From a bacterium (lineage in GTDB: Bacteria; SZUA-182; DTGQ01; JAFGSM01), in assembly GCA_016934595.1 (NCBI GenBank), contig JAFGSM010000151.1, positions 1 to 59,686 of the forward strand: 59,686 bases of DNA. The letters are read 5' to 3'. Both the position numbers and the translations under genes were made by a program. Shown piece after piece: positions 14,349 through 56,069 of the stretch (positions are counted from its first letter, which is position 1; every line of letters starts with the position of its first letter). The notes beneath the pieces were generated by a model. The model searched no databases and was not told where the DNA came from. It saw only the letters and a program-made list of their open reading frames with translations.

Positions 14349-14352
14349 TTCT

Positions 14353-14955: not shown

Positions 14956-15025
14956 TTATCAATCCACCCTCTCCTTTGCTTTATAAATATAAAAGGCTTA
15001 TCCAAATTTTATATAAACCTTTATT

Positions 15026-23234: not shown

Positions 23235-23407
23235 TGATCAAACCTCGGGATTAGGATGAAATATTTATTATGACATATCGTATAATAAATATTGAAAAAA
23301 AGATAAGATTTCAAGCCGTTTGTCATTCCTTCTTTTTTTATTTTTATTTATAATGTGATATTACTTGATATTGAAAATCACAAAGATATATATTGGAGGG
23401 GATGCAT

Positions 23408-27767: not shown

Positions 27768-30700
27768 TTGGGAAAGAAAGGCATTATCTGGTTGACATTC
27801 TCCATTTACCTGGGGTTGTTGCTTCTTGCACCGATAGAGGTGACTGCTGTCGACGGGGGATCAGGGGACCCTGAAGGCGCCCATAACCAGATACTCCCCG
27901 GGCTTAAAGACGCTTTATGCAAAAGGTGCCACTTCGTCAAAAGCGGCAATGCGCCTAAGATATGGAAGGATGTCCCCCTTGGCGCGGAGACAATAAAGGA
28001 TACAAAAGGGGTGAGAACCATTTGCCAGAGTTGTCATTACCCAGGAAATGCAGTGAACGCCATTTCAGGTTTTTCCCTCGGGGTCCATCCCACAGGGGGT
28101 CATGAATACAGTTACTCAAATGTCTTTTTAGACAAGACCAATTCAGGGCAAGGGGAAGATCATGTTATGCATGACTGGGCAGACATTGATCCGGTCACAG
28201 GAAGGCTTCCTGAGGGACTCAACCCTGCATTTCCAACAAAAAAGGCTGACAAATGGGGCTACCCCAGACAGAAAGGAGACACTGAAAACAAGGGTTTTTA
28301 CTGTATTTCCTGCCATGATCCTCACAAACAGCCTGAAGAAAAGACCGATGGCACTGGCGATTATCTGAGATTAAAAGAAGGCGGCAATTTAGGCGCTTCA
28401 GGTGACAGGACAATATTTTGCCTGCAATGCCATCAGAACATACCGGAAAAACCTCAGCATGGTGTAAAACTGGGTTGTCAGAGGTGCCATCACCCCCATG
28501 ATTCGATTATCAGGATAGAGGATGATCCAATCCTCGGTCAATGGATACTGCTGGTTCCCATAAGAAAGACCAATTTCAGGGCTCTTCCAAATGTCCCATC
28601 CTTTGGCAGTCAGGAGAACGAAATTGATCTGGATATGTCTTCAACCTGTTATGGGTGCCACAATCCGAGCAGGCCTGCCGATTTTTCAAAATTAGGCGCC
28701 GCCATTATTTTTGGGGATGACACCGATACTCCTAAGGAGCACCATCCAATGGGCAGCCAGGCAATGATAAAGGGGATGATCCATGCGGATGAAGTGATGT
28801 TCCCAAGCCCGGAAGGTCAACTCACCTGTATCTCCTGCCATGATGGATTTCATGAAGGCAAAAACCCTTATTTTTTGCGGCAGGATTTTACTGAAGATGC
28901 GGCAGGGTTTTGCTCCGTATGTCATAATGAAAAGACGTCGGAAGATCTTGGTCCTGCCAAAGGCCAAGGTCATCGCCAGATTTTCGGGAAAAGCCCTAAT
29001 GGGAGAGGGGACTGTATGTTTTGCCATTTTATTCATGATGGAAGGGATTGCGGCACAGAATCAACCCCTGCCATAGAGGCTCTGATCAGGGTCCAGCCCA
29101 TGAATCTGGCGTGGGCCAAAAAGGGAGATATTCAAAGCACAGAGGACTATGAAGATATATGCTATGGATGTCATGGAGACATAATATATATGAAAGGCTC
29201 AGGGTATGAAGGCGCAATGCTCCAACCTGACAAGTTTGCCAGTCATCCGTTCTCCGGCGCCCCCCACCTCGTCAAACCAAGGGAGGGCTTCCTTATCTCT
29301 GACGGCCAAAGGTCCGAAACGATAAATGATTATGGGGTTCCTTCCGGAGAGATATTTTGCGGCTCTTGTCACAATGTCCACAAAGCGTCAAATAAGCCCT
29401 ATCTGAGGGTTGATGATTCTCCCTATCTTGGCCAGGGTTTTTGCGAAGGCTGTCATACAGAGTGTCCCGCAGAAGGACGCTCAAGCCATCCGGTTGGAAT
29501 GCCCCCTAATATGGATAAAACAGTGGCAAAGTTTCCTGACACCCTTTACGGCGGGGGAAGCGGAGACCCAAGAGGCATTACAAGAGGCAATGAACCTGAC
29601 GGTGAAACCCTGTGCCTTACATGCCACAATGTCCATGCTGCATCTACAGACCATCAGGGAAACCTGACTGATAAAACGGCCATTAGAAGCCAGAACGGAA
29701 AACACGGTCATTTGCTTTGCGCAGACAACTTCTCATCCGAGGATGGAAGCGATCTTTGCCGCTCATGCCATAAACCATTTGAAGGCATTTGCGGATCAAG
29801 ACATGACTTTTCAGGCATAGATCTGGGCGAGATCAGCTCCAAAGGGGTATGTTCTGCCTGCCATACCCCTCATAAGACAAAGGATAAGGTGCTGCTGTGG
29901 CCAAGGTCCCTTACGGAAGAAAGGGGCAAATTATCTCAGAAGGACAAGCCTGATTATGTGCCAGGTATAACCATTTTCTGCTACGATTGCCATGAAGACA
30001 TCTCTTCTCTCGACAACGATCCCCCTTCGAGCGCCTTTTTTAAACCACCCCAGGACATTGCATTTAGCGATGGCCCTGGGTCAAGCTCAATGGTGGGATA
30101 TTACGACACAATCCCCCCTGGAGATACTCAACCGCCATCGGACGGTTCGCCAACTGGCGGACATTATATCCAGACAGCCCATATCTCAAGGTTTAGACAT
30201 GGCATTGAGACAGGCGATAAACTGCCGTGCGATTTATGTCATAATCCGCATGGAGGAAACAACAATCAGGTCTTTCTCGTAAACCCTTTGGGTGTAAATA
30301 CAACAGACAATCTGGAAGCCAGCCGCCATACACGGAACGGCACAGGCACAGGCAGGGAAATCTGCGCATCCTGTCATGGTTACGCCGAAACGGATGCGTT
30401 GATCGGAATACCGTTGAAGATATATGATTTCACGATTGTCAGGACATCCGGCGGCAGGGCTGAACATAAAAAAAATAGCGGCGCACCATGCACAAACTGC
30501 CACAGGCACAACAGGATTGTGCCTGTTCAAAACCAGGCCCATCTGGTACACCTGATATCATCAAGAGTCTCAGAACAAGATGGTTCAAACCTCATACGCA
30601 CAAAAAGCATGGATGGCGCAAGCAGAGGTCTTGGGGTCGATAGCTGCTCTATATGTCATCTGCCTGAGCTGACATATGAAATCGGAGAGCTGAAATTCTC

Positions 30701-31841
30701 CGATGATCAGCCCCTCAACAGAACCAATGTCTGCCAGTCATGCCACAGCGAGGGAGGAAGTTATAACGGCGTATCGGATCCGTCAATCGGGGCAAAATTT
30801 AATTGGCGCTCATCCCCCTATAATTCAAATGGCACGCTTAAGCTCGGCAAAGAGAAATGGTGCGCGGGCTGCCACGATGAAAAACCTTCGACAATCTGGT
30901 GGCCCGGACTTGATCGAACAATCGTTGCCCCTAATATATGCGGGGAGAAAGAGTATACCGCCAGCCAGGACCAAGGTTATGGTTTTTACGAATCAGGGCA
31001 TGGACTTGCCCCCTATTTCAAGTACATGGATTCGGAAAGGCGCGGCGCAGGCCTTTTGTGCACGGACTGTCACGACCCTGACCTGCCTCATGTAATGTCC
31101 AAAAGATACGATGCAGAGGCAGGAAATTATCAATCAGGATACCGCCTCCGGTCAATTAACGGGAAGGAACCCATGATCATCCCCAGGCTGCGTGACGAAT
31201 ACTGGCCGGGAGATTTCAATCTCTGTTATTCCTGTCATCCTGAGAAATCAATCATAGGTCTAGGGTTTGGTTACCGTTCTTACACCACAAATCATAACCC
31301 CTTCTTCCTTGTGGACAATCCCGAAACCGGCTTTAAAAATATCGACCTTCAGGGATTGAACAGGCATAATACAACCCTGGGGCCGACCTTCGACTTTATC
31401 AACTATTATCCCAGCAACAGTCACTGGAACCATCTGGCGCTCCCCAATGCGCTTGTCACCCTTTCAGTCCCTACCGGAGGAGGCAGGACCCGTATCAGCA
31501 GTTGTATCGACAGTAAATGCCACAGCAAGATCGTATGGGATTCGGATCGCGATGGATTTCTTGACTCAAGGCCATCATGCACAACCTGTCACAACCCCCA
31601 CGGCACAAGATATCCGTCCATGACAAGGAATGATATAGCCATAACGCACGATCAACCTGGGCAGGACTGGCGGTACGGGTATATAAATAGCCGAAATTAC
31701 GGCCTGTTTGGCAATGAGGGAGAAGACCTCTATTGCGGAGAATGCCATGCAAAACTCATGAGATTTGGTGAAAGCAACTATAAATATTACAGGAACCCCT
31801 GGGTGGATGCCGATGAAATTGCCCCAAAGGCGCCAGAATAA
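27768..31841 (+). CDS. Giant multihaem c-type cytochrome (about 26 CxxCH plus one CX4CH), secreted
   Basis: 1357 aa. TTG start 6 nt after aggag. Signal peptide GIIWLTFSIYLGLLLLAPIEVTA. I count 26 CxxCH by hand. Aa ~28-673 is one copy of the 14-haem module that is triplicated in the next gene. The C-terminal half has 12 more CxxCH and a CIDSKCH. Many sites have the CxxCHxPH doubled-CXXCH style. Confidence 0.9.
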   Translation: MGKKGIIWLTFSIYLGLLLLAPIEVTAVDGGSGDPEGAHNQILPGLKDALCKRCHFVKSGNAPKIWKDVPLGAETIKDTKGVRTICQSCHYPGNAVNAISGFSLGVHPTGGHEYSYSNVFLDKTNSGQGEDHVMHDWADIDPVTGRLPEGLNPAFPTKKADKWGYPRQKGDTENKGFYCISCHDPHKQPEEKTDGTGDYLRLKEGGNLGASGDRTIFCLQCHQNIPEKPQHGVKLGCQRCHHPHDSIIRIEDDPILGQWILLVPIRKTNFRALPNVPSFGSQENEIDLDMSSTCYGCHNPSRPADFSKLGAAIIFGDDTDTPKEHHPMGSQAMIKGMIHADEVMFPSPEGQLTCISCHDGFHEGKNPYFLRQDFTEDAAGFCSVCHNEKTSEDLGPAKGQGHRQIFGKSPNGRGDCMFCHFIHDGRDCGTESTPAIEALIRVQPMNLAWAKKGDIQSTEDYEDICYGCHGDIIYMKGSGYEGAMLQPDKFASHPFSGAPHLVKPREGFLISDGQRSETINDYGVPSGEIFCGSCHNVHKASNKPYLRVDDSPYLGQGFCEGCHTECPAEGRSSHPVGMPPNMDKTVAKFPDTLYGGGSGDPRGITRGNEPDGETLCLTCHNVHAASTDHQGNLTDKTAIRSQNGKHGHLLCADNFSSEDGSDLCRSCHKPFEGICGSRHDFSGIDLGEISSKGVCSACHTPHKTKDKVLLWPRSLTEERGKLSQKDKPDYVPGITIFCYDCHEDISSLDNDPPSSAFFKPPQDIAFSDGPGSSSMVGYYDTIPPGDTQPPSDGSPTGGHYIQTAHISRFRHGIETGDKLPCDLCHNPHGGNNNQVFLVNPLGVNTTDNLEASRHTRNGTGTGREICASCHGYAETDALIGIPLKIYDFTIVRTSGGRAEHKKNSGAPCTNCHRHNRIVPVQNQAHLVHLISSRVSEQDGSNLIRTKSMDGASRGLGVDSCSICHLPELTYEIGELKFSDDQPLNRTNVCQSCHSEGGSYNGVSDPSIGAKFNWRSSPYNSNGTLKLGKEKWCAGCHDEKPSTIWWPGLDRTIVAPNICGEKEYTASQDQGYGFYESGHGLAPYFKYMDSERRGAGLLCTDCHDPDLPHVMSKRYDAEAGNYQSGYRLRSINGKEPMIIPRLRDEYWPGDFNLCYSCHPEKSIIGLGFGYRSYTTNHNPFFLVDNPETGFKNIDLQGLNRHNTTLGPTFDFINYYPSNSHWNHLALPNALVTLSVPTGGGRTRISSCIDSKCHSKIVWDSDRDGFLDSRPSCTTCHNPHGTRYPSMTRNDIAITHDQPGQDWRYGYINSRNYGLFGNEGEDLYCGECHAKLMRFGESNYKYYRNPWVDADEIAPKAPE

Positions 31842-32233: not shown

Positions 32234-35200
32234 GTGGAATATTCAGGTAACATGTTTAAAAGACTTTTTTTGTATCACATATCCTCTGAAAACATCTTGG
32301 TGAAAAACTTTGCTTTTGCGCTGCTCATTATAATTATCTCCATTTTTGTAAGCAGTGCCTATGCCGATGTAAATGGACCTCACGGAGACCCTCGAATCAG
32401 AAGCCCAAAGGGGATCTGCGCCACATGTCACATACCCCACGAGGCAAAAGGGCGCAAGATATGGGCAATAAGCGGCAAAAATAACAGGGACCTTTACAAG
32501 GGAATACGCCAGCTATGTCAGACATGTCATGATGGCACCTTGTTTTACAGTGGATCCCCTCCCGGATCGGATGTGTCTGACCCAGGTTATGAAACAGCCG
32601 ATTATCCTCCTGCATCGTCGTACTCCGGAGAATTTGGCGTTGAAACCCAGGGTGAAGAAAAACTCAACATATATGCATCTACAGGCATATATGACGTATT
32701 CGGAGACATGAGCGCTTACGAAAGTCATGTGATGCATGGGGCCGTTGAGCTGGATCCCAAGAAAAGCCAAGTCCTTCTCGACGATATCGCAAGCGTTATT
32801 CCCGATGTCTTTCCGCTTGATCCAACGGATGAAGACATCTATCCGGAAGGCGCCCCCGAGAAATATAGATCCGGAGCGCCAGGTTTTTATTGCGGCACCT
32901 GTCATGATCCTCATAAACAGCCGGACGGGAAATACACAGGCGGGTTTTATCTGCGAACCAGGAAAGGCCACGATGTAGGCAGCCCATGGGTAAACAGGAA
33001 ACCTTTCTGTGTGCAGTGCCACGGGGTGATCCATGCGCCTGAATCCGACTGTTTGGCATGTCACCATCCCCACCTTGGCAAAACAATGATAAAGGACGAT
33101 GAGAAAGCAGGGAGATGGATACTTCGCAATCCTATTGTGCAACAAAATTTTTCAGCCAAACCCAATGTGCTGCAAATAAATGATGGCGATGGGCAAACCC
33201 CGTCGGCTCTTTGTTATGGCTGCCACATTGGCGAAAAGGATAACGGATGGATAGAAGCGGGAGCCGTGCCTATCTTCGGGGATGGAATATCAAATCCCAT
33301 TTACACCAATGATATCGGAGACAGCGGCAAGAGGCAACACCATCCTATGGGGAACCAGGCATGTCTTGATGACCCTTCAAAAGCGCCTAACGGTGTTTTT
33401 ATTCGCGCCCCAGGCTTAAATGATTTGCGAGGCAGCATCCCGGATATCCTCAACAAAAACAACGAGATTACATGCACATCATGCCACGACGGGATACATG
33501 GCTCAGGGCCATATAAAGACCAGCCGGGTGCCAAGGAAAAAAGCAAAAAGAACAACTTCCTGCGATGGGATTTCGAAAATGACAATCCTGGATTCTGCAC
33601 ACAATGTCATTCGAATATGGACAAAAAGGATGCTTTTTCCGCACAGAATCTGGATCACGATATTAAACATCATCAGACAAAAGACGAGGCATTTGCCCGC
33701 AATGTAACCAGGCGGACATTTGTATACGATCCAAATTCAGGGATTCAAGAAATAGAGACAGGATGTGGCAATTGCATGTTCTGCCACTTCATCCATGACG
33801 GGGAAGACAGGGGCGAGACGGCAACACCTTCTCTTGAGGCATTGATGAGGGTTCCCCCCGTCAACCTGCCATGGTCGGGAAACGATAGCGCTGAGGATTA
33901 CGAGGACCTTTGCTTTGGCTGCCACAATGGTGAATACAAGGGCAAAAAAAATATTGTGGGAGACCCTGAGACAGGCTCATGGCTAAAACCGGGCCTCTAT
34001 TTTTCACATACCTTTACAGGCGAGCCGAATATATCGATAGACCCCAATATCTTTCCGGTATCGGACGGGGATGCTATCGATGTTTTTGATGATTATGGCG
34101 TATTGGAAAGAAATATCTATTGCGGCACATGCCATGACGTACATTCAGGCAAAAACTGGCCTTATCTCAGGTCGAGCAAATCCCCATATGAGGCATATGG
34201 TTTTTGTGAGTCATGCCACGACCAGGACGATTTTGTGATGCGCAGCCACCCTGTCGACCGGGGACCTAACGATGATAAAAGCAAGGGATCCATGACCAAG
34301 GCCGCCTTCGATCCTGTCTTCTCGCAAGGCGGAAGCGGAAGACCTGGAGGTATTTTGTCTGAAGGAAAGGTCATCTGCCTTACCTGTCACAACACACATT
34401 CGGCGGTCACATCTAATGAAGAAACGGCGCATGGGACTCTCCTTGTCATGGACAATTTCCCTGCGGATTCTCCAAATACAAATGGCGACGAGATTTGCAT
34501 GGGATGCCACGATCAGGAGATATTTAAGGTCAATGGCCCCCATATCGACGAATTATCAGAAAAAAACTATAAGGGAATCTGTCACAACTGTCACACCCCC
34601 CATTATGCAAAAACCGGATCCAAGATATGGGCGCTTGAACTTAAAGGTGAATTCGGAGGTGTGCACGAGCTGTGTTATAGCTGTCATAATACATCAGCGT
34701 CATCAGGCATAGACAGCGTATTTTTGAAAAACAGATATGAAAACCATGTGATGTTTGGCGGGGCTGCCATAATAGCCGGAAACTGCCCCTATGCGCCCAA
34801 TCTGGAAAAGGATGTCGACACATCTTTCTTTCCGCTTGATCCCAACGATTATGACACCATACCGGACAAGGATGTCACATATTGCAGCCGGTCGTCTTTA
34901 AAATACCTTGATAGTCGAAACAACGAAGGCGCAGGATTTTATTGCGGCTCATGCCATAATCCCCATTTGCAGCCTGATGATCCAAACTCAAACGGGGACT
35001 ATCTAAGGTCCCGTGATCAAGATTCTATTGGCACACCAGGCAACAGAAAGGATTTCTGCAAACAGTGTCATGGCGTTTATCATTTTCCAAGCTCCGATTG
35101 TCTTTACTGTCATCACCCCCATAAAGGGAGAACTCTTATTGAAGAAAATGAATATGCAGGACGGAAGATCATCTCCTTATTTCCTTTGAAAGATATGATC

Positions 35201-38200
35201 CCGGAGGATTTTTATTTTTCTGCGCTGCCTAATGTGCCAAAGATAACAGAAGACCCCAATGACCCTGATCCGATCCCATCCAGATATTGTTATTTCTGCC
35301 ATAACTTTCAGATGGAACAAATTGCTGAAAGACCGATCCCTGTAATATATGGAGACGACGCCGGCGCGCTTGGAAAAGAACATCACCCGATGGGCGCTCA
35401 GGCAAGCCAGAATGACCCTAACAAATTCATAAGCGGCGATTTTATAAGGGCAAAAGGGATGACAAAGAGTATATATAGCTCTGCCAAACCCATTTTAAAT
35501 CTGAACAAAAAGGGTGAAATTACATGCACCACTTGCCATGATGACCTGCATGGCCCTGGTTTCTTCGAAGATCAACCGGATTCGGCAAGTAAAAGCGAGG
35601 CAAACAAATTCCTCCGCTGGGAACTGAATAATATAGATGGAGAGGACAAACCCAATTTCTGCATAGCCTGTCATGATGACAAAAATGTCTTCAATCTCTC
35701 CGAAGGCAAGCACCTCATTTCAAAGGGCGAGCACCCCGATGAGAGACTGAAAAGGGGCGGGTGCATGTTCTGCCATTTTATCCACGACGGAGAAGAAAGG
35801 CAACAAGAAGATCCAACAGCAGGTATCGCAATAAGGCCTGATGTGGATGCCCTCTTAAGGATCGGCCCTGTAAATCTATCATGGGGGGACCGGACAGGAA
35901 ACGAAAGCATCTATGATTATGAAGACCTGTGTTTTGGGTGCCATAGCTCGCAATCCATTGTCAAATACAAACCTTTAGAGCACGGATCGCTCCTTGATCC
36001 CAATCATTTCACCCATCCTTTTGCGATCTCCAGCAGACAGGACATAATCGGCGTTGGATTCCCAATATCGGATGGACAGGGCACGGCGGTTCTGGACGAC
36101 TATGGGACGCAGGCAGGCCAGATGTACTGCGGTACATGCCATGATATCCATGACAATAGCACCGCCCCTTATATCGGCAGTCATTCGTCACCCTATCAGC
36201 CCAATGGCTTATGCGAGGAATGCCATGATAAGGGCGGGCAATTTGTATCCTCCAGCCATCCCATAGGCGTTGGCCCAAATCCTGACCCTTCCCAGGGTGG
36301 CAGGACAGCGTCCGAATTTGTAGACACCTATAATGGCAAAGGTTATCTATTTTCACAGGGCGGAAGCGGAAGGCCGGGCGGCGTGACCTATCCATTCAAT
36401 ACACAACAGGAAAAATCCACTGACGGCGGGAAAGGCAAGGTCATCTGCCTTACATGCCATAATGTCCATGCAGCGGCCACGTCCTGGCAGGGGACGACCA
36501 AAACGGACACCGAAAACCAAAACCACGGAAAACTGTTGGTCAAAGACAATAATGCCTATCGGCCTTTACTTGCCCCTGGCAGCGAGCTTTGCAAGGCATG
36601 TCATCCATTCGGCGCAGAACAGTACGGATTCCCATCAGGAAAACATGGAGGGAGTTTTACGTGGGAGCAATCAGGCATATGCAGCGCATGCCATACGCCT
36701 CATTACTCCAAAGGACCTAAACTCTGGAGCCTGCCAGGCTATAATGCAGGCCCTTTTAAAGGAATCCGCCAGCTTTGCTTTATCTGCCACAATCCTGATC
36801 TAGTCATTGCCACGGCAGGGACAAAAACCGTATTTAAAGAGGCAAACCTGGGAGGACGGATACCTGATGATTACTATGAAGATCATGTAACAAGAAATTG
36901 GGCAAACATTGGCAATATAGAATTTTATGACCCTAATGTCTTCCCTCTCGATCCCAATGACCATGATGTAATACCCACAAAAAATCAGGTAGAGCCTGAT
37001 CCCCATGACGGTTTCTATTGCGGCTCGTGTCATAATGTCCACATACAGCAGGGATTTGACTATCTGAGGAGCAAGGACGGGAACACCGGACTACCCTCTT
37101 ATCGTAAAAATTTCTGTATAGAGTGCCATATAGATGCACATAATCAAGATACATCGGATGACTGTCTGAAATGCCATCATCCCCATATGGGGGCAACACG
37201 GATCGATGACGACCCCAACGGCCGCTGGATAACTAAAGTGCCTTTGGCCAGAGCAAGGGATTTTATGGCCCTGCCAAATGTGGATGGCTTTACCAGCCCG
37301 GATGTAAGCTCGACATGTTATAGCTGTCATGCCCCGTATCTGCAGGATCCTAATACACTGGGATGGAACGACCTTGGAGCGACGACTATATACGGAGATT
37401 TCATTGATACGAATTCAGATTCTCAAGCCAGGGCAAAGGCGTTTGGTTGGACACCAAGAGAACACCACCCGATGGGAAGACAGGCAAGATTTGGGCAATC
37501 CCTGAGGGCTCCGGGGGCGGACAGAAGCGTATTCAACATACATGGGGAATTGACCTGCACGTCATGCCATTATGAAAACCATAAGGGGGAGAGGGAAAAC
37601 AACTTCCTGAGATGGGACTTCGCAAATGACAACAGCCATTTCTGTATGAGGTGCCATACAAACAAGCAGGAGATCAATTTTGGCCCTCCGGGGTGGGGAC
37701 ATCATCAGACCAGGGAGAGCAGCCCTTTGGAAAGATATGTGAATGAGCGTTTTGAGATAGATGGAGAAGGTATTTATAAGGATACCAAAGTAAAATGCGG
37801 CAATTGCATGTTCTGCCATTTCATACATGATGGCAACGATCAGGGCGATGCAAGTAAACCCTCAATAGACTCGCTCATGAGGGTGCCGCCTGTCAATCTT
37901 ATGTGGGCGGATTCATGGCAGGATGAAGACACGCTTGACTATGAGGATCTGTGCTATGGATGCCACAGTCAACAAGATATTGTAGGCGGCGTTGGCGGAT
38001 TCGGGTCCCTGATTATATCCACTAAGGGCCTGTCGCCCGATGCTGCATCCGACCCGATTCTGGGACGCAGGTTCAGCCACCGTTTCCGTTCAGCTCCAAA
38101 TCCATCGAGCGCGACCATGATCAGGTTTTCATCAGGAGGTCCATTCCCTCTCTCTGACGGCAAAGGGGAAAATATACTTGATGATTATGGCGCTGCATCC

Positions 38201-40069
38201 GGCAATATGTACTGTGGCACATGTCATGATGTCCATAGCTGGGCGGCAAATCCGGGTACTAAATATCTAAGAGGGCTGACTTCCCCCTATATGCCCGGAG
38301 GTTTCTGCCACGAATGTCATAGCGCCGAGCCTGCCCCCAGCGTATGCTCCCCCGCTCTGAATCACCGCCTTGCCCCTGCGCCTGAAGGATTAGTCTCTGT
38401 TGTGGAATGGTCACCCCTCCTTTACAGCAATGTGGATCCAGCAATGTCAAGAGGCAAGGGAGAAAAGGGAGGCTTCGTTGCAGTTCCGGCAGGCTTGACC
38501 CCAAATCTAGGCCAGATGACCTGCATGACCTGCCATAACATACACGCTGCGGAAACCACCTATGACGGGCATGTGGACCAGCCGCATTCGGATGAAACCG
38601 CTATCGTGGACGGAAGACGCGGCAAACTTCTAATAATAGACAACGGACATGGGCCTTCAGGGAGCGATTTGTGCCTGAACTGCCATCCGGATCACTCTCA
38701 GATAATAGGATCTCAACACGACTTCACACACAGGGGTCTGGATGGCCTGGGCGCAGGCATCGCAGATAAGGGGGTATGTTCCGCATGTCACAGGCCACAT
38801 ATAGCCCTGGATGAAAAACTTCTCTGGGCAAGACCAATGGTTGAAGAAAAGGTCATGTTCGGATCAGTACCCGGATTCGCCCTGGGATCCACAATATACT
38901 GCTATGACTGCCATTCCGGGCCATGGTGCGACATAAATCCCCTCCCCGAACTTTTTCTTCCTTTTCCGCCCCAGGATGTAGCATTTATAGACGGGCCTGG
39001 CGGGATTATTGCCGGCTATTATGAGTATCTTCCTGCCTTTGTTCAGGATATACCGCCCCACCGTATCCCTGCCGGCATGCCTACAGAGGTAAAAACATCA
39101 GGGCATTACATCCGGCAGCCCATCATAACCCCTGGGATAGCACAAAATGACAAGCTGGCCTGCAACGACTGCCATAACCCGCACCGAGGCATAACAAAGG
39201 AAGGGATCCCAAATCAGGCTTTTATCAAAAGCGTTCTCGGAGGGAAACCCATGGGACCTTACAAGGCAAGCATGAACATGACCTATCACAAGGAAATCAG
39301 AAATAACCTGGAAAGCCGTCAGGCATGTGTCGCGTGCCATGGACTTGCGGACAGGCCAAACGCCCCTGTTTATCCTCCCGCTGCATTTGTGCAGGTAAAT
39401 CCTTTATATACAAGCATTCTCCCTGTCGCAAGACCTACATCCACCGTTTACGACCATTTTGATGCCGGGCTGTATCCTTGCACAGACTGCCATAAACATA
39501 ACAGGGCCATGGTGCTTTGCATAGACTGTCACAGCTATCCTCCGGTTACCACAGGAAATGGTTGGTCAGGTACCGGGGATACGGATCAGAATTATACCGG
39601 AGGGGCGGGCGCCCATTATAAACATGTGCTTGAGCATCAGTTCCCTTGCACGATGTGCCATCTTGGCTGCCTTCATGACCCTGGAGGCGCCACTGTAGTA
39701 AACCCTGTATTCATAAGGGCAAAGGTAAGCATTGACTTTGATGCTACATATAAATTCCCCAGGACAGCTGGGGAGTACCAGACCAAAATGGGATATTATG
39801 GCCCGGATGGAAAGCCCACAATACCTCCGCTCTACGACCCTGTTAATCAGACCTGTTATGTAGGCTGTCACAACCCGCTTGTGGGAGACCCTGACGAGAC
39901 ACCCAATCTTGACAACCCCAGCCCAAGCTGGTCGCTGCAAGTCCCGCAGGCCCCCACACCTCCAAATTTCCCAGGCAGTGGTTTTGAATCCTGGATCACT
40001 GTGAGAATGCCTTATCTGGTGCCTACAGGCATCCCTGGGCAATGGATAATCCCCTGGCCTGGCATGTAA
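32234..40069 (+). CDS. Giant multihaem c-type cytochrome (about 49 CxxCH plus one CX3CH), triplicated 14-haem module
   Basis: 2611 aa. GTG start at 32234 (alternative ATG at 32252). Signal-like FALLIIIISIFVSSAYA. Manual count: 14+14+14 CxxCH in three colinear ~700-aa modules, plus 7 CxxCH and CYVGCH in a ~455-aa C-terminal region. Confidence 0.9.
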   Translation: MEYSGNMFKRLFLYHISSENILVKNFAFALLIIIISIFVSSAYADVNGPHGDPRIRSPKGICATCHIPHEAKGRKIWAISGKNNRDLYKGIRQLCQTCHDGTLFYSGSPPGSDVSDPGYETADYPPASSYSGEFGVETQGEEKLNIYASTGIYDVFGDMSAYESHVMHGAVELDPKKSQVLLDDIASVIPDVFPLDPTDEDIYPEGAPEKYRSGAPGFYCGTCHDPHKQPDGKYTGGFYLRTRKGHDVGSPWVNRKPFCVQCHGVIHAPESDCLACHHPHLGKTMIKDDEKAGRWILRNPIVQQNFSAKPNVLQINDGDGQTPSALCYGCHIGEKDNGWIEAGAVPIFGDGISNPIYTNDIGDSGKRQHHPMGNQACLDDPSKAPNGVFIRAPGLNDLRGSIPDILNKNNEITCTSCHDGIHGSGPYKDQPGAKEKSKKNNFLRWDFENDNPGFCTQCHSNMDKKDAFSAQNLDHDIKHHQTKDEAFARNVTRRTFVYDPNSGIQEIETGCGNCMFCHFIHDGEDRGETATPSLEALMRVPPVNLPWSGNDSAEDYEDLCFGCHNGEYKGKKNIVGDPETGSWLKPGLYFSHTFTGEPNISIDPNIFPVSDGDAIDVFDDYGVLERNIYCGTCHDVHSGKNWPYLRSSKSPYEAYGFCESCHDQDDFVMRSHPVDRGPNDDKSKGSMTKAAFDPVFSQGGSGRPGGILSEGKVICLTCHNTHSAVTSNEETAHGTLLVMDNFPADSPNTNGDEICMGCHDQEIFKVNGPHIDELSEKNYKGICHNCHTPHYAKTGSKIWALELKGEFGGVHELCYSCHNTSASSGIDSVFLKNRYENHVMFGGAAIIAGNCPYAPNLEKDVDTSFFPLDPNDYDTIPDKDVTYCSRSSLKYLDSRNNEGAGFYCGSCHNPHLQPDDPNSNGDYLRSRDQDSIGTPGNRKDFCKQCHGVYHFPSSDCLYCHHPHKGRTLIEENEYAGRKIISLFPLKDMIPEDFYFSALPNVPKITEDPNDPDPIPSRYCYFCHNFQMEQIAERPIPVIYGDDAGALGKEHHPMGAQASQNDPNKFISGDFIRAKGMTKSIYSSAKPILNLNKKGEITCTTCHDDLHGPGFFEDQPDSASKSEANKFLRWELNNIDGEDKPNFCIACHDDKNVFNLSEGKHLISKGEHPDERLKRGGCMFCHFIHDGEERQQEDPTAGIAIRPDVDALLRIGPVNLSWGDRTGNESIYDYEDLCFGCHSSQSIVKYKPLEHGSLLDPNHFTHPFAISSRQDIIGVGFPISDGQGTAVLDDYGTQAGQMYCGTCHDIHDNSTAPYIGSHSSPYQPNGLCEECHDKGGQFVSSSHPIGVGPNPDPSQGGRTASEFVDTYNGKGYLFSQGGSGRPGGVTYPFNTQQEKSTDGGKGKVICLTCHNVHAAATSWQGTTKTDTENQNHGKLLVKDNNAYRPLLAPGSELCKACHPFGAEQYGFPSGKHGGSFTWEQSGICSACHTPHYSKGPKLWSLPGYNAGPFKGIRQLCFICHNPDLVIATAGTKTVFKEANLGGRIPDDYYEDHVTRNWANIGNIEFYDPNVFPLDPNDHDVIPTKNQVEPDPHDGFYCGSCHNVHIQQGFDYLRSKDGNTGLPSYRKNFCIECHIDAHNQDTSDDCLKCHHPHMGATRIDDDPNGRWITKVPLARARDFMALPNVDGFTSPDVSSTCYSCHAPYLQDPNTLGWNDLGATTIYGDFIDTNSDSQARAKAFGWTPREHHPMGRQARFGQSLRAPGADRSVFNIHGELTCTSCHYENHKGERENNFLRWDFANDNSHFCMRCHTNKQEINFGPPGWGHHQTRESSPLERYVNERFEIDGEGIYKDTKVKCGNCMFCHFIHDGNDQGDASKPSIDSLMRVPPVNLMWADSWQDEDTLDYEDLCYGCHSQQDIVGGVGGFGSLIISTKGLSPDAASDPILGRRFSHRFRSAPNPSSATMIRFSSGGPFPLSDGKGENILDDYGAASGNMYCGTCHDVHSWAANPGTKYLRGLTSPYMPGGFCHECHSAEPAPSVCSPALNHRLAPAPEGLVSVVEWSPLLYSNVDPAMSRGKGEKGGFVAVPAGLTPNLGQMTCMTCHNIHAAETTYDGHVDQPHSDETAIVDGRRGKLLIIDNGHGPSGSDLCLNCHPDHSQIIGSQHDFTHRGLDGLGAGIADKGVCSACHRPHIALDEKLLWARPMVEEKVMFGSVPGFALGSTIYCYDCHSGPWCDINPLPELFLPFPPQDVAFIDGPGGIIAGYYEYLPAFVQDIPPHRIPAGMPTEVKTSGHYIRQPIITPGIAQNDKLACNDCHNPHRGITKEGIPNQAFIKSVLGGKPMGPYKASMNMTYHKEIRNNLESRQACVACHGLADRPNAPVYPPAAFVQVNPLYTSILPVARPTSTVYDHFDAGLYPCTDCHKHNRAMVLCIDCHSYPPVTTGNGWSGTGDTDQNYTGGAGAHYKHVLEHQFPCTMCHLGCLHDPGGATVVNPVFIRAKVSIDFDATYKFPRTAGEYQTKMGYYGPDGKPTIPPLYDPVNQTCYVGCHNPLVGDPDETPNLDNPSPSWSLQVPQAPTPPNFPGSGFESWITVRMPYLVPTGIPGQWIIPWPGM
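32366..34525 (+). repeat. Intragenic 14-haem module, copy 1 (aa ~45-764)
   Basis: Starts DVNGPHGDP...GICATCHIPH...KIWA and ends ...ICLTCHNTH...EICMGCHDQ. The motif order is colinear with copies 2 and 3 and with 27849-29786. Confidence 0.8.
34526..36625 (+). repeat. Intragenic 14-haem module, copy 2 (aa ~765-1464)
   Basis: Starts KVNGPHIDE...GICHNCHTPH...KIWA and ends ...ICLTCHNVH...ELCKACHPF. Same 14 CxxCH in the same order. Confidence 0.8.
36626..38701 (+). repeat. Intragenic 14-haem module, copy 3 (aa ~1465-2156)
   Basis: Starts GFPSGKHGG...GICSACHTPH...KLWS and ends ...TCMTCHNIH...DLCLNCHPD. Same 14 CxxCH in the same order. Confidence 0.8.
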
Positions 40070-40084: not shown

Positions 40085-41701
40085 ATGGGACATAGAACAT
40101 ATATAATAAGATGCAGGAAGATGATAAAAAGGCATACAGAAGGGAAAACCTGCAATAATAAAATACAGGGCATGTCAAGATTTCCTGCACTGATATTAAC
40201 ATTGGCCTTGATAACAGGTTTGACGGGTTTACTTTTCCTTTCACAGCAAAGAAACTATAAAGCCCTGGCACAGGTGATGATGGAAAAGACATCACCTCCC
40301 ATGAGCTGCGCCGGATGCCATGATTTTCAGGCAAAGCTATTTTCTGATTATCCCTCCCATCATCCAAACTTTCTCACGTCGACCGTGCAGACAGATTTAT
40401 GGACAAAGGCAGACAACATCAAAAAAGATTGTCAGGCATGCCACATGTTCGACCCTAAAAAACATACAAAGGGCATAATATTATTAAAAGACCCTGATCC
40501 GGCAGACAGATTTGTGTACAGCGGCGATTTGATAAATAAGACAAACCTCTGTCTTTCATGTCATGACCTGCCATCAGACCCTGCAAAGCCTGCCGTATTT
40601 TTCAGCACGGGAGGTTCACCCCCTGAGATAGCATCCATGTGGATCAACAGCGTCCATGGGAAAAGCAATATTCCAAACACGCAATCCCCTATCGATTGTC
40701 TGGTATGTCATAAATATCATGGATCCGCATTCCCAGGTTTGAGAAAGCTCAAAGATGAAGATCTGTGCTTCGACTGTCATACAGAGAAACAGCAGGAGTT
40801 CGATCCTGGCTTTGCGTCCCATCACAAGATTGAGCCCATACTTTTGGGCTCCCAGTTTCAGGATGTCCTTGATTGCACTGATTGCCACAATCCGCATCTC
40901 GTGACAAAACAATATCCTATTACAAGGCCAGGCCTAAGCACAGAGCTTTATCAAGCCCTTCCTGCCAGCCTTGCCACACCAATCGTTACAGATACGGACA
41001 CAGGGGTCCTGATTTCAGGGACGCCTTATTATACAGGGCAGACAAATGAGGCAGGAACGCCGTTAAGCGTCCTTTTCTGCATGGAATGTCATGCGCCTAA
41101 TCTATTCGAGCCGCTCAGGACACCATGGCCGGGCGCGCCTAATATATCCTTCGAACTGACCTCCAGAAATTATGGCACAGGCACTGTCTCGAATTTCTAT
41201 TATGCCCATAACCATGTTCAGTCAGGATCATGCAGCACCTGCCATACCACTGGAGGAGGCGGAGGAGGCGGAGGAGGAGGCGGCGGCGGCACTACCATTA
41301 TCAACAACACTTTTAATGGACATTTTACCCACAAGGACAATGCTTCATGCACTTACTGCCATGATCCTCATGGAACAAAAGGGACATTTGCAGGATCAAC
41401 CGCCAGTGGTATCATAGGCATTCAGAGAGGGCACCTCCTGAAGGATTGGTTGCTGGTTGACTCAAGGTACGCAAATGCGCTGCCAGCATACGGAGGGTAT
41501 CTTGCCCTGCAAAACGGCGCCAAAAGCTGTCTGGCTAATGACCCTTTCAATAGCTGCCATAATGTGAAGTATATACATAAGTCAAGCGTAAAACCCCTGG
41601 ATACGCCCACCAGTTGCGATACAGAAAGTTGTCACAGCGGTTTTAATCCTGTGGCTGCAAGGACACTGGCAGACAATATAGCGCCGGAGGCCCCAAGATA
41701 A
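40085..41701 (+). CDS. Multihaem c-type cytochrome (9 CxxCH plus 2 atypical candidates) with an internal poly-Gly tract
   Basis: 538 aa, starting only 15 nt after the previous stop. Alternative starts are at 40121 and 40172 (MSRFPALILTLALITGLTGLLFLS, a signal/anchor). Sites: CAGCH, CQACH, CLSCH, CLVCH, CFDCH, CTDCH, CMECH, CSTCH, CTYCH, plus CDTESCH. Confidence 0.85.
   Translation: MGHRTYIIRCRKMIKRHTEGKTCNNKIQGMSRFPALILTLALITGLTGLLFLSQQRNYKALAQVMMEKTSPPMSCAGCHDFQAKLFSDYPSHHPNFLTSTVQTDLWTKADNIKKDCQACHMFDPKKHTKGIILLKDPDPADRFVYSGDLINKTNLCLSCHDLPSDPAKPAVFFSTGGSPPEIASMWINSVHGKSNIPNTQSPIDCLVCHKYHGSAFPGLRKLKDEDLCFDCHTEKQQEFDPGFASHHKIEPILLGSQFQDVLDCTDCHNPHLVTKQYPITRPGLSTELYQALPASLATPIVTDTDTGVLISGTPYYTGQTNEAGTPLSVLFCMECHAPNLFEPLRTPWPGAPNISFELTSRNYGTGTVSNFYYAHNHVQSGSCSTCHTTGGGGGGGGGGGGGTTIINNTFNGHFTHKDNASCTYCHDPHGTKGTFAGSTASGIIGIQRGHLLKDWLLVDSRYANALPAYGGYLALQNGAKSCLANDPFNSCHNVKYIHKSSVKPLDTPTSCDTESCHSGFNPVAARTLADNIAPEAPR
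41252..41290 (+). repeat. GGN simple-sequence tract (13 consecutive glycine codons)
   Basis: gga gga ggc gga gga ggc gga gga gga ggc ggc ggc ggc, read directly. It lies immediately after the CSTCH-TT haem site. Confidence 0.9.
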
Positions 41702-44800: not shown

Positions 44801-45396
44801 TAGACATCGCCTTAATGAGTGATGCCCCCGCCATATTGAAAATCCATGCAGATCCCAATTACCTTACTGCAAATGGCTCTGAGGAATCCACTGTAAAGGT
44901 ATGGGTGGCTGATATAAATAAAAACTCGGTGCAGCAGGCAGTAGTGGAATTTTATATCCTTCAGGATGGAATGGGAAGACTATCTGATATAACAAGGACA
45001 ACAGATTTCAACGGCCTTGCCAATTGCACCTACACATCGCCTGCCCTTTCAGGGTATTTGCCAGCCGTTGCCACGATTCAGGCAAAGATTACCTCGCGTG
45101 TGCCTGACGGAGAAGAAATGGCAAAGGCATTGGGTACTATATTTGTGCCTCTCATTTACACTGAGCTGAAAGCCGACGAAGAGTTAAAAATCCTGGAATG
45201 GCTCTATAAAAAAGGGGATGATATAAAGGAGGGATCGCCCATAGTCCGCATATCGACGCAAAAGGGCGATTTCTCCCTGAATGCCCCCGTCTCCGGACAA
45301 CTTATCCAAATAAAAAGGCACAGGAGAGAGGGTGTCAGACTGGGCCAAACCCTGGGGCTGATAAGGGCAGACGATGAATATCTGGAGCTTGATTAG
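41851..45396 (+). CDS. Large secreted surface protein: 4x FN3-like + 3x unassigned beta-domain + 3x Big_1-like Ig domains + C-terminal lipoyl/biotinyl-like domain
   Basis: 1181 aa. GTG start 6 nt after ggagga. Signal peptide ...FAGSSHA. FN3-like units (GDGEAHITW...YYYAVTAVDFFGNES; GDGEIQLLW...YFYMASCV; VKLTWEE...YLYSVVAV; VKITWKS...YIYTISAVDRAGN). Big_1-like units (RITVKVTDANGNP, SMITAQLADISGNP, STVKVWVADINKN). The C-terminal sequence resembles a lipoyl domain. Confidence 0.7.
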   Translation: MIPNTIFSDKKRFVFQTLFTGMLVFIWICLFAGSSHAIEARAGDGEAHITWIAPTKNEDGTPLTDLKGYYIYRTENPSHPYKRLNEEAVKGICYTDTGLLNGITYYYAVTAVDFFGNESQRSPVVSITPNILPPSNFKAKPGDGEIQLLWEPYEKSDIKGYLIYRRGALDTEFKKITDIPVPAQQTHYIDSSVANGIAYFYMASCVGMDGMEGLQSQEAGATPLAIIPGELVSVKALYIREQEGISYVKLTWEESQEENVTGYNVYRRLKTERDFTRLTPDPIKETYYNDTTVSADKGYLYSVVAVTGGGMETRYPREAECFTSEVYISSFSHDTGGMAKKAGDEICFMLRGEPGAFSSYKIEGLTSQLPMEEINDGVYKSCLKITQEMSIDQAKATGFLEDKNGNMTSVAANKPITIDNEPPGPVYDSKAILDLGIVKITWKSPDGEHSGFDIFRKELVSTGTFDSDPDAGELIAKVQAGNTSHYDSAVKPDRDYIYTISAVDRAGNLSTPSSTPSVHVPYQEGIPVIEKVIDNTAGLPQKTGNKIHVELTGEEGCQAGFFIQGVFEGTVPMTETEPGRYSGDYIIRPEDTSEEALIRGCLQDDMNHFNIQNSPNRFPINFESNDTTPPLIYEISHNAFEISGFSGHLVPGNHLDITLRGEPGCKALFAISNSDITAYMKDGGSVSTPESCVIFHEMSESEDYPGQYSGGYTIKWEDGTSAEKWLWICLADKAGNLAYRQSDETLSIDARPRIEVIPADKALWVDQESKTRITVKVTDANGNPAERHLIALTLTTTDEYTGVVGGGDFGRRIDSDDMGIDFDQETDSWGEVEIEYSSGFAAKTALIVAKDLTTGHAGAGYILNILKAQTDIFLYPPARFSINSLYKLILTADPGRLTADGVSTSMITAQLADISGNPEKKEGLKISFHLSDENNGTLSYPREVHTDSYGQASIRYTAGIIRGTVTIAAFCESNDRYNGACSAVDIALMSDAPAILKIHADPNYLTANGSEESTVKVWVADINKNSVQQAVVEFYILQDGMGRLSDITRTTDFNGLANCTYTSPALSGYLPAVATIQAKITSRVPDGEEMAKALGTIFVPLIYTELKADEELKILEWLYKKGDDIKEGSPIVRISTQKGDFSLNAPVSGQLIQIKRHRREGVRLGQTLGLIRADDEYLELD

Positions 45397-45547: not shown

Positions 45548-45563
45548 TGGCATATTTATTGCT
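45548..45563 (+). promoter_or_regulatory. Sigma-54 (-24/-12) promoter-like element
   Basis: TGGCAT-ATTTA-TTGCT, correctly spaced, 58-76 nt upstream of the candidate starts of the LVIVD gene (45622 and 45640). Confidence 0.55.
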
Positions 45564-48723: not shown

Positions 48724-48742
48724 ATCAAAAATCTTGCAAAAT

Positions 48743-56063: not shown

Positions 56064-56069
56064 CAACAT

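What the first reader, a model, noticed from the sequence alone, without database searches (positions are those of the whole stretch)
32234..40069. 2611-aa cytochrome with about 50 haem sites, built by triplication of a ~700-aa, 14-haem module
Seen in sequence:
- Three colinear segments (aa ~45-764, 765-1464, 1465-2156) each contain 14 CxxCH in the same order.
- The same landmark strings recur in each segment: GIC..CH.PH..K(I/L)W; FYCG(T/S)CH(D/N)PH; DC(L)xCHHPH; HHPMG; (E)(I/L)TCT(S/T)CH; FLRW(D/E); CMFCHFIHDG; DYEDLC(F/Y)GCH; (M/I)YCGTCHD(V/I)H; (I/T)C(L/M)TCHN.H.
- The matching DNA stretches differ at many synonymous positions. For example, the four CMFCHFIHDG-coding stretches at ~29015, 33775, 35762 and 37806 all differ.

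Inference: the triplication is ancient and maintained by selection, not an assembly artefact or a recent duplication. A rod of three 14-haem units plus a 7-8-haem tail would be a very long insulated haem wire in a single polypeptide.
Basis: seen in the sequence. Interest (0 to 1): 0.82.

Follow-up and report, generated by a model that had tools for sequence, protein, structure and literature searches.

The report
Giant 50-haem cytochrome of fused units
This gene encodes a real 2,611-residue protein with 50 haem-binding sites, made of three diverged copies of a 14-haem module that is itself a chain of units related to bacterial "nanowire" cytochromes, so it is probably a very long single-molecule electron wire, though giant cytochromes of this kind are already known.

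Summary
ORF 32234-40069 (+) has 49 CxxCH plus one CxxxCH, against about 0.2 expected by chance. They are arranged as 14 + 14 + 14 + 8.

The three ~700-aa modules share 34-39% BLASTP identity (E down to 4e-150). Their DNA is only 50-56% identical, so a repeat assembly artefact is excluded. At least five other assemblies encode the same three-module protein, and modules group by position (100% bootstrap), so the expansion is old.

- **Internal period.** Each module repeats every four haems. A profile of the ~200-aa tetrahaem unit (4 CxxCH plus 4 conserved His) matches the solved OmcE nanowire subunits at E 4e-17 and 6e-13.
- **Length series.** In more distant genomes the syntenic orthologue has one module and 21 CxxCH. 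Module 3 is the ancestral copy; modules 1-2 group with a paralogue's module.
- **Stand-alone subunit.** A conserved 158-aa OmcE-like tetrahaem gene lies nearby (20243-20719, -).

Most likely function: a secreted, covalently concatenated haem wire of roughly 40 nm for long-range electron transfer.

The geometry is unproven, because both AlphaFold2 models failed. This is a new variant of a known kind and is moderately interesting.

The parts
32234..40069 (+). ORF B: 2611-codon multihaem c-type cytochrome with 49 CxxCH and 1 CxxxCH. The probable true start is GTG 32300 or ATG 32252.
32300..32365 (+). Probable Sec signal peptide (VKNFAFALLIIIISIFVSSAYA, cleaved before DVNGPH). This leaves a conserved His at mature position 6.
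   Evidence: Read from the sequence. Orthologues likewise place the GPH His 5-6 residues after an AxA-type site. No signal-peptide predictor was run.
32366..34525 (+). Module 1 (aa 45-764), 14 CxxCH. It comprises three OmcE-like tetrahaem units (aa 46-268, 267-492, 505-707) and a half unit (710-761).
34526..36625 (+). Module 2 (aa 765-1464), 14 CxxCH. Units at aa 766-948, 952-1169 and 1165-1385, with a half unit at 1394-1458.
36626..38701 (+). Module 3 (aa 1465-2156), 14 CxxCH. It is the copy orthologous to the single module of the 21-haem relatives. Units at aa 1467-1639, 1637-1849 and 1843-2081, with a half unit at 2093-2165.
38702..40066 (+). C-terminal tail (aa 2157-2611): 7 CxxCH and 1 CxxxCH, followed by a Pro-rich, His-free C-terminus. 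It is homologous to the first part of the tail of ORF A and to the tails of the single-module orthologues.
27768..31841 (+). ORF A: 1357 aa, 26 CxxCH and 1 CxxxxCH. It is one 14-haem module (aa 33-676, nt 27864-29795) plus a 12-haem tail. Its module belongs to an older paralogue clade.
40085..41701 (+). ORF C: 538 aa, 9 CxxCH and 1 CxxxxCH, with Pfam hits to MtrC/MtrF domain II/IV. It is always found directly downstream of B.
41851..45396 (+). ORF D: 1181-aa haem-free protein with fn3, Invasin_D3/Big_1 Ig-like and C-terminal lipoyl-like domains. It is conserved after C in all related loci.
23393..25093 (+). SurA/PrsA-like peptidyl-prolyl isomerase with a possible lipobox (ISGC). It lies upstream of A in all syntenic loci, immediately so except in this window.
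20243..20719 (-). Stand-alone 158-aa OmcE-like tetrahaem cytochrome. The mature N-terminus is GEGHEEC. It has 4 CxxCH and 4 other His, and the chain ends just after haem 4. It is 73-90% identical across related genomes.

Best explanation
**What it is.** ORF B encodes a Sec-exported c-type polycytochrome. Its basic building block is a ~200-aa tetrahaem unit with four CxxCH and four conserved distal His. This unit is homologous to OmcE, the subunit of a Geobacter/Desulfuromonas extracellular cytochrome nanowire. In OmcE filaments the subunits are held together non-covalently, and a His of one subunit ligates a haem of its neighbour.

**Architecture.** Here about 12.5 such units are fused head to tail in one chain. 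Three and a half units form a 14-haem module. There are three modules, followed by an 8-haem tail.

**How it probably works.**
- Inferred: the conserved His that precedes each unit (including the GPH His between modules) plays in cis the role of the inter-subunit His.
- Inferred: all about 50 haems are bis-His ligated and form one continuous chain along which electrons hop.
- Inferred: scaling from the 34 Å rise per four haems of OmcE gives a wire of roughly 40 nm.

**Gene context.** The gene sits in a conserved cluster:
- a stand-alone OmcE-like tetrahaem gene;
- a SurA-like chaperone;
- the 26-haem A;
- B;
- the 9-10-haem C;
- the Ig-like surface protein D.

This cluster most likely carries respiratory electrons across and beyond the cell envelope of an uncultivated anaerobic diderm bacterium.

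**How it evolved.** The 14-haem module is the unit of evolutionary change. Orthologues in other lineages have one module (21 CxxCH), paralogues have one or two, and this clade has three. Wire length has therefore been changed by adding modules.

**Shown versus inferred.** Shown: the motif content, the nested repeat structure, the homology to OmcE, the age of the expansion and the synteny. Inferred: the haem ligation pattern, the linear geometry, the location outside the cell and the physiological role.
For: **Haem motifs and triplication.**

**Four-haem period inside the module.** Profile self-alignment:
- shift of 4 haems, E 1e-22;
- shift of 8 haems, E 4e-16;
- shift of 2 haems, E 7e-15.

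**Unit signature.** In 60 units from 20 modules, all four CxxCH align in 100% of sequences and four further His in 95-100%. Alignment A2 of 45 units gives the same result.

**Homology to nanowire subunits (unit profile against PDB).**

| Match | E-value | Note |
|---|---|---|
| OmcE, 7tfs_A | 3.9e-17 | residues 43-231 of 232 |
| D. soudanensis OmcE, 9yuq_N | 6e-13 | - |
| OmcS, 6ef8 | 1.6e-7 | - |

The whole-module profile had already hit 7tfs at 5e-8.

**Literature on OmcE.**
- OmcS and OmcE use an inter-subunit His (PMC12954529; bioRxiv 10.1101/2022.07.17.500359).
- The OmcE helical rise is 34 Å.

**Unit map.** The unit HMM finds 3 full units plus a half unit in each module.

**Haem density.** B has 53 residues per haem. 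That is close to OmcE (232 aa for 4 haems) and unlike the 22-25 residues per haem of MtrA-type cytochromes (PMC7399161).

**Distal ligands.** Each module has 13 invariant and 1 near-invariant non-motif His for its 14 haems.

**Synteny and length variants.**

**Module phylogeny.**

**Autonomous module.** Stand-alone 660-780-aa single-module proteins exist.

**Cell type.** A diderm anaerobe is indicated by the Rnf operon, SurA-like proteins and a TonB-dependent receptor.
Against: - No structure supports the geometry. AlphaFold2 without haems gave pLDDT 34 for the module and 45.5 for the unit, and Foldseek found nothing.
- No outer-membrane beta-barrel or porin gene was found in the conserved cluster. 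OmcE and OmcS clusters usually have one. Export beyond the outer membrane is therefore unsupported.
- Close orthologues conserve more non-motif His than haems: 59 against 50. The ligand assignment therefore cannot be read from the counts.
- There are no expression data, and the organism is unidentified.
- The tail matches the unit profile only weakly.
Confidence: 0.62

Rival explanations
1. It is a periplasmic conduit or electron store. The protein stays in the periplasm, where it either bridges the inner and outer membrane or acts as a capacitor buffering electrons. It is not an extracellular wire.
For: - No porin, beta-barrel or dedicated secretion gene lies in the conserved cluster.
- The cluster includes a SurA/PrsA-like periplasmic chaperone.
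- By the OmcE scaling, the 21-haem orthologue and the 26-haem A would be about 18-22 nm long. That is close to the width of a periplasm (textbook value, from my own knowledge).
- Large multihaem cytochromes have been proposed as capacitors or as links between the membranes (PMC7399161; PMC11492766).
Against: - By the same scaling, a 50-haem chain of about 40 nm exceeds the width of the periplasm.
- The closest solved relatives are extracellular filaments.
- The cluster carries an Ig-like / fn3 / invasin-like surface-type protein.
- Haem density is that of nanowire cytochromes, not of periplasmic MtrA-type wires.
Confidence: 0.22
2. It is part of a hetero-filament. B (and A) is a pre-assembled, covalently built segment that joins the small stand-alone OmcE-like subunit (20243-20719) by the same His-to-haem handshake. 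It would serve as the base, initiator or cap of a polymeric nanowire.
For: - The small cytochrome matches the unit profile at E 6e-15. It has the OmcE architecture: an N-terminal His at mature position 4, 4 CxxCH, 4 other His, and a chain that ends right after haem 4.
- It is syntenic and 73-90% identical across genomes.
- A and B also start with a conserved His within 6-12 residues of the predicted signal cleavage site, and have no His after their last haem motif.
- The identity of nanowire initiators and stoppers is an open question.
Against: This is purely sequence-pattern reasoning. Counts of conserved His do not show an unsatisfied haem in B. No structural model is available. The N-terminal His could simply ligate a haem of its own unit.
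Confidence: 0.12
3. It is a catalytic multihaem enzyme (nitrite, sulfite or hydroxylamine reductase type) or an assembly artefact or pseudogene.
For: Weak profile hits to NrfA and octahaem nitrite reductases, at E 1e-4 to 1e-5.
Against: - There is no CxxCK motif.
- The NrfA hits cover only generic dihaem stretches.
- Scores against curated enzyme and decahaem families are far below their cut-offs, for example 51.7 bits against 192.2 for TIGR03508.
- The ORF is intact, and six independent assemblies, counting this window, give the same architecture.
- The module DNA is only 50-56% identical.
Confidence: 0.03

Closest known systems
OmcE tetrahaem nanowire cytochrome (G. sulfurreducens, PDB 7TFS; D. 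soudanensis, PDB 9YUQ)
   Same: - The ~200-aa unit has four CxxCH and four conserved distal His in the same order.
- The unit profile matches essentially the whole OmcE chain at E 3.9e-17 and 6e-13.
- Residues per haem are similar.
- Beta-propeller genes lie nearby: E here, and NHL proteins in L042.
   Different: - OmcE is a stand-alone ~230-aa subunit that polymerises non-covalently. Here about 12.5 units are fused in one 2,611-aa chain with a fixed length.
- No large beta-barrel gene is present in the cluster.
- The lineage is an unclassified uncultivated bacterium, not Desulfuromonadia.
OmcS hexahaem nanowire (PDB 6EF8)
   Same: Weaker but significant profile match, E 1.6e-7. OmcS shares its haem packing and its inter-subunit His with OmcE.
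   Different: It is a hexahaem polymerising subunit. No four-haem period or module organisation has been described for it.
Long single-chain 'nanowire-like' multihaem cytochromes found by genome mining (for example the 27-haem, 130.7-kDa protein of G. metallireducens RCH3; record 113 haem motifs; PMC11492766)
   Same: One polypeptide carries tens of haems and is predicted to form a long haem wire. These proteins are thought to evolve by fusion and fission of modules.
   Different: The nested repeat hierarchy reported here is not described in the papers I read, although my search was limited. That hierarchy runs from dihaem to tetrahaem OmcE-like unit to 14-haem module to three modules, and comes with a 21-to-49 haem series in one syntenic operon.
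GSU1996-type 'polymer' cytochromes built of c7-type trihaem domains
   Same: A multihaem wire built by tandem repetition of a small cytochrome domain. Pfam Cytochrome_C7 gives summed hits here.
   Different: The repeat period here is four (or two) haems, not three. The unit is OmcE-like rather than c7-like.
Burkholderiales 24- and 49-haem porin-associated cytochromes (PMC7399161)
   Same: [quoted passage not shown] One of them also has 49 haems.
   Different: Those have about 23 residues per haem and sit next to a porin. This protein has 53 residues per haem and no adjacent porin.

Membership tests
Multihaem c-type cytochrome | Multiple CxxCH haem-attachment motifs, far above chance | tested here: met
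   49 CxxCH plus 1 CxxxCH, against a mean of 0.23 and a maximum of 3 in 2000 shuffles. 49 of 50 motif His are invariant in five orthologues.
Multihaem c-type cytochrome | N-terminal export signal, so that haem can be attached outside the cytoplasm | tested here: met
   By inspection only. There is a hydrophobic N-terminus ending in AYA before DVNGPH, and equivalent AxA-type sites precede GPH in the orthologues. No predictor was run.
Multihaem c-type cytochrome | Haem actually bound covalently | not testable with these tools
   Needs haem staining or mass spectrometry of the protein.
OmcE-type nanowire cytochrome family | Four CxxCH and four further conserved His per ~200-aa unit | tested here: met
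   In 60 units, the four motifs align in 100% of sequences and the four His in 95-100%. Alignment A2 gives the same invariants. This criterion is taken from bioRxiv 10.1101/2025.10.22.684050.
OmcE-type nanowire cytochrome family | Significant sequence similarity to solved OmcE subunits over their whole length | tested here: met
   Unit profile against 7tfs_A: E 3.9e-17 over residues 43-231 of 232. Against 9yuq_N: E 6e-13.
OmcE-type nanowire cytochrome family | Stand-alone tetrahaem subunit that polymerises non-covalently | tested here: not met
   In ORF B the units are covalently fused: 3.5 per module, three modules and a tail. The neighbouring 158-aa gene at 20243-20719 does have the stand-alone architecture.
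OmcE-type nanowire cytochrome family | Gene cluster with a large outer-membrane beta-barrel protein and beta-propeller lipoproteins | tested here: inconclusive
   A beta-propeller is present: the LVIVD protein at 45622-48723, and NHL proteins in L042. No beta-barrel was recognised in the conserved cluster by Pfam, NCBIfam or PDB searches. The LVIVD gene is not conserved in related loci.
OmcE-type nanowire cytochrome family | Alternating parallel and T-shaped haem packing in a continuous chain | not testable with these tools
   AlphaFold2 without haems gave pLDDT 34 and 45.5, and Foldseek found nothing.
Porin-cytochrome conduit (MtrA / DmsE / PCC type) | Score above the curated family cut-off, dense haem packing (~23-25 aa per haem) and an adjacent porin gene | tested here: not met
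   TIGR03508 scores 51.7 bits against a cut-off of 192.2, and NF041028 scores 36.4 against 325. The protein has 53 aa per haem. No porin is present in the cluster.
c7-domain polymer cytochromes (GSU1996 type) | Tandem trihaem c7-type domains, giving a repeat period of three haems | tested here: not met
   Self-alignment shows periods of 4, 8 and 2 haems only. The best structural-family match is OmcE, not c7.

The most novel reading that the evidence does not exclude
The cluster encodes a complete hetero-nanowire with built-in ends. The small OmcE-like tetrahaem subunit (20243-20719) would polymerise. The giant cytochromes A and B are covalently pre-assembled stretches of the same unit. They would join the polymer through the same His-to-haem handshake, using their conserved His near the mature N-terminus. 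They would thereby act as the filament's initiator, anchor or terminator. The OmcE field says these roles are still unidentified.
Probability: 0.12. Interest if true: 0.8.

Novelty: new variant of a known kind. Interest (0 to 1): 0.55.

Why it matters
Cytochrome nanowires such as OmcS, OmcE and OmcZ are polymers of small subunits. How their length is set, and how they start and stop, is unknown. This protein is a natural covalent version of an OmcE-type wire with a fixed length.

The same syntenic operon carries a 21-haem form or a 49-haem form of this gene in different lineages, and paralogues elsewhere in these genomes have 14 or 28. That is a natural length series for testing how haem-chain length affects electron transfer. 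It also offers a defined-length, genetically encoded wire for protein engineering.

The family is rare. Only about 25 clusters at 50% identity among 1.84 billion representative proteins hold a full module. It is confined to unclassified, uncultivated bacteria, some from cold-seep catalogues, so it points to an unstudied electron-transfer system.

It is not a record, because up to 113 haem motifs are known in one protein. Modular evolution of multihaem cytochromes is also an established principle.

Tried and rejected
- **AlphaFold2, module 1 with a 15-sequence alignment.** pLDDT 34, unusable.
- **AlphaFold2, one tetrahaem unit with 45 aligned units.** pLDDT 45.5. Foldseek against PDB then returned nothing. 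OmcE-type proteins are mostly coil wrapped around haems, so haem-free prediction is expected to fail.
- **dN/dS between modules.** dS is saturated, so no ratio can be given.
- **Counting conserved non-motif His to test for a spare donor His or an unligated terminal haem.** Diverged alignments give about one His per haem. Close orthologues conserve more His than haems. The result is inconclusive.
- **Taxonomy from the SHMT gene.** The best named hits, at about 65% identity, are spread over many phyla. Closer hits are unnamed or labelled only 'bacterium'.
- **Sigma-70 promoter and terminator scan, and sigma-54 pattern search.** Sigma-54 matches occur at the chance rate; the promoter and terminator scans give modest excesses (47 vs 34, 28 vs 19) and single out no site.
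- **Rfam on the whole window.** No hits.
- **Curated families.** NCBIfam and Pfam give only generic paired-CXXCH and c7 matches.
- **Literature searches.** I looked for a 49-haem protein of this kind and for fused OmcE-like proteins. I found no description of this family. The library is partial, so absence is not proof.
- **Assembly-artefact and enzyme readings.** Rejected; see the rival explanations.
Full report
**1. The observation**

The window has one uninterrupted ORF at 32234-40069 (+), 2611 codons from a GTG. The database copy of the same protein is 2589 aa. Translation therefore probably starts at the GTG at 32300, or at the ATG at codon 7.

The hydrophobic N-terminus ends in SSAYA, followed by DVNGPH. 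This reads as a Sec signal peptide.

The protein has 49 CxxCH and one CxxxCH. Shuffling its residues gives 0.23 CxxCH on average and never more than 3.

The motifs fall 14 / 14 / 14 / 7(+1) in aa 45-764, 765-1464, 1465-2156 and the tail. Motif spacing is parallel in the three segments.

BLASTP between the segments gives the following.

| Pair | Identity | E-value |
|---|---|---|
| Module 1 vs 2 | 39% | 4e-150 |
| Module 1 vs 3 | 34% | 4e-116 |
| Module 2 vs 3 | 34% | 5e-106 |

Each alignment covers about 700 aa. A fourth copy forms the N-terminal half of the upstream ORF A (27768-31841; 1357 aa, 26 CxxCH), at 34-35% identity.

The four CMFCHFIHDG-coding stretches lie at 29013, 33773, 35762 and 37805, and they differ at synonymous sites.

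**2. Not an artefact, and old**

- Aligned module codons are only 50-56% identical at nucleotide level.
- Fewer than half of the codons for identical residues are themselves identical.
- Synonymous distance is saturated.
- The longest DNA repeat family in the region is 52 nt at 65-77% identity.

An assembler has nothing here to collapse or expand.

The same architecture occurs in independent assemblies. P0002, P0003 and P0004 share 56-61% identity with this protein. P0005 shares 41%. Locus L002 encodes a further copy. All are 2578-2658 aa with 47-49 CxxCH.

In a neighbour-joining tree of 20 modules, modules 1, 2 and 3 of the window, P0002, P0003 and P0004 each cluster by position with 100% bootstrap. 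A 34-module tree with 200 replicates gives the same result.

Of the 50 motif His, 49 are invariant across the five full-length orthologues.

**3. How the expansion happened**

Related loci share this gene order:
1. small cytochrome (on the minus strand);
2. SurA-like isomerase;
3. A (26 haems);
4. B;
5. C (8-9 haems);
6. a ~1200-aa Ig-like protein.

In the closest relatives (L001, L002) B has three modules and 49 CxxCH. In four more distant genomes (L005, L007, L012, L014) the gene in the same position is 1197-1333 aa with 21 CxxCH. That is one module plus the tail.

This single module groups with module 3 of the long proteins (83% bootstrap). Modules 1 and 2 group with the first module of a paralogous two-module, 28-haem cytochrome (P0007, L008, L006; 89% bootstrap). 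The modules of A-type proteins form their own clade (100%).

In the genome carrying P0005, the two-module paralogue lies 4 kb upstream. Its first module is 68% identical to module 1 of P0005. This suggests continuing module exchange.

The 'triplication' is therefore a stepwise N-terminal addition to an ancestral one-module gene. Whether the added modules arose by internal duplication or were borrowed from the paralogue is not resolved.

Stand-alone proteins of 660-780 aa consisting of one module also exist. The module therefore behaves as an autonomous unit.

**4. A deeper layer: the module is made of OmcE-like units**

A profile of 15 modules (alignment A1) aligned against itself shows shifted matches:
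- offset of four haems, E 1e-22;
- offset of eight haems, E 4e-16;
- offset of two haems, E 7e-15.

I cut 20 modules into units a (haems 1-4), b (5-8) and c (9-12) and aligned all 60 units. All four CxxCH line up in every sequence. Four further His are 95-100% conserved. The pattern is CxxCHxxH ... CxxCH ... H ... CxxCHxxH ... CxxCH ... H (alignment A2).

A profile of these units gives these PDB matches.

| PDB entry | E-value | Note |
|---|---|---|
| 7tfs_A | 3.9e-17 | residues 43-231 of 232 |
| 9yuq_N | 6e-13 | - |
| 6ef8 (OmcS) | 1.6e-7 | - |

7TFS is the G. sulfurreducens OmcE nanowire. 9YUQ is the D. soudanensis OmcE nanowire.

[quoted passage not shown] It also describes a His of one subunit ligating a haem of the neighbouring subunit.

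The unit HMM maps three full units plus a half unit in each module of B, and weaker partial matches in the tail. B is thus about 12.5 OmcE-type units in one chain.

Its 53 residues per haem resemble OmcE and differ from the 22-25 of MtrA-type wires.

**5. What it most likely does**

By homology I infer a continuous, bis-His haem chain. The His that precedes each unit would do in cis what the inter-subunit His does in OmcE filaments. At module junctions this is the invariant GPH His.

With the OmcE rise of 34 Å per four haems, 50 haems would span roughly 40 nm. The 21-haem orthologue would span about 18 nm.

The surrounding genes fit an extracellular or envelope-spanning electron-transfer system in an anaerobic diderm bacterium:
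- an Rnf operon;
- SurA-like proteins;
- a TonB-dependent receptor;
- sigma-54 regulators;
- two more large cytochromes;
- an fn3/invasin-like surface protein.

This functional reading is inference. Both AlphaFold2 attempts failed and Foldseek found nothing. No porin or beta-barrel gene was recognised in the conserved cluster. There are no expression or localisation data.

A periplasmic role is the main rival. A role as base or cap of a filament built from the small subunit is a more novel possibility.

**6. The neighbouring small cytochrome**

The 158-aa gene at 20243-20719 (-) matches the unit profile at E 6e-15. After its signal peptide it starts GEGHEEC. It has four CxxCH and four other His, and it ends just after the fourth motif. 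This is the stand-alone OmcE architecture.

It is syntenic and 73-90% identical across genomes in which A and B are only 43-76% identical. It may be a polymerising subunit in its own right.

**7. Comparison with what is known**

- Giant single-chain multihaem cytochromes are known from genome mining. Examples are a 27-haem nanowire-like protein and a record of 113 motifs.
- Haem-number variation among homologues by insertion or deletion of CxxCH domains has been noted.
- Modular 'grafting and pruning' is an accepted model for their evolution.

What I did not find described is:
- an OmcE-type unit concatenated into a nested repeat (unit, then 14-haem module, then three modules);
- the 21-to-49 haem series in one syntenic operon;
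- the co-located stand-alone OmcE-like gene.

The paper library is partial, so this absence is not proof.

The full module is rare. About 25 representative clusters among 1.84 billion proteins hold it. In the species-representative genomes it is found strongly only in unclassified 'MAG: bacterium' assemblies and two cold-seep MAGs labelled Pseudomonadota. The SHMT gene could not place the organism.

**8. Verdict**

The function as a long electron wire is plausible by homology but unproven.

I rate it a new variant of a known kind, with interest 0.55. It is not a record holder and not a new principle. It is a clean natural example of a covalent, length-variable OmcE-type wire, and it could help with open questions about nanowire length and ends.

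Noticed in passing
window 20243-20719 (-): A 158-aa stand-alone OmcE-like tetrahaem cytochrome. It has a mature N-terminus GEGHEEC, 4 CxxCH and 4 other His, and ends right after haem 4. It is 73-90% identical across related genomes and always syntenic with the big cytochromes. It is a candidate polymerising nanowire subunit.
   Followed up: partly
window 27768-31841 (+): Upstream ORF A (1357 aa, 26 CxxCH and 1 CxxxxCH) is one 14-haem module plus a 12-haem tail. The first ~200 aa of that tail resemble B's tail (32% identity). It also gives Pfam hits to MtrC/MtrF domain II/IV.
   Followed up: partly
window 31815-31841 and 41675-41701 (C-termini of ORFs A and C): A and C end in a similar short motif: ...DEIAPKAPE and ...DNIAPEAPR. 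The A-type proteins P0009 and P0010 end ...VAPESPK and ...TPPAPPR. This may be a shared C-terminal sorting or processing tag.
   Followed up: no
window 26312-26327 (-), 45548-45563 (+), 382-397 (-): An identical sigma-54-promoter-like 16-mer, TGGCATATTTATTGCT, lies upstream of the sigma-70-family gene (25212-26222, -) and of the LVIVD propeller gene (45622). A one-base variant is at 382-397. The overall number of pattern matches in the window is at the chance level.
   Followed up: no
window 45622-48723 and 48674-51028 (+): A 1033-aa LVIVD beta-propeller / Ig-domain protein overlaps by 50 nt a 784-aa protein with weak GH42-like hits. Neither gene was found in the related cytochrome loci, so they are not part of the conserved cluster.
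   Followed up: partly
L042 (JBLIRR010000001.1), also L003, L004, L006, L008: A paralogous cluster with this gene order: two NHL beta-propeller proteins, a two-module 28-haem cytochrome (P0007), another NHL protein, then further 14- to 24-haem cytochromes. In L042 it lies directly upstream of the three-module P0005.
   Followed up: partly
L018 4067-13864 (P0006) and L013 / L016 (P0008): A 3244-3266-aa ORF with 60 CxxCH, and 1750-1771-aa ORFs with 27 CxxCH. They carry partial modules in permuted order, mixed with He_PIG and Big_2 domains. This may be module shuffling, or frameshifted or chimeric genes.
   Followed up: no
P0004, module 3 (protein aa 1521-2212): Natural motif variants occur in one orthologue. 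The third haem motif reads CGSCM (His replaced by Met), and another reads CINKCH (CxxxCH). This orthologue has 47 rather than 49 canonical motifs.
   Followed up: no
window 12860-17911 (-): A complete Rnf-type operon: RnfC, D, G, E, A and B-like genes. It indicates a ferredoxin-linked anaerobic energy metabolism.
   Followed up: no
window 53389-58403 (+): A TonB-dependent receptor of the TOL_0244 family (620 bits, just under the cut-off of 645). It is followed by a YfiR/HmsC-like protein and a hybrid histidine kinase of the 'YfiR-like protein-associated' type.
   Followed up: no
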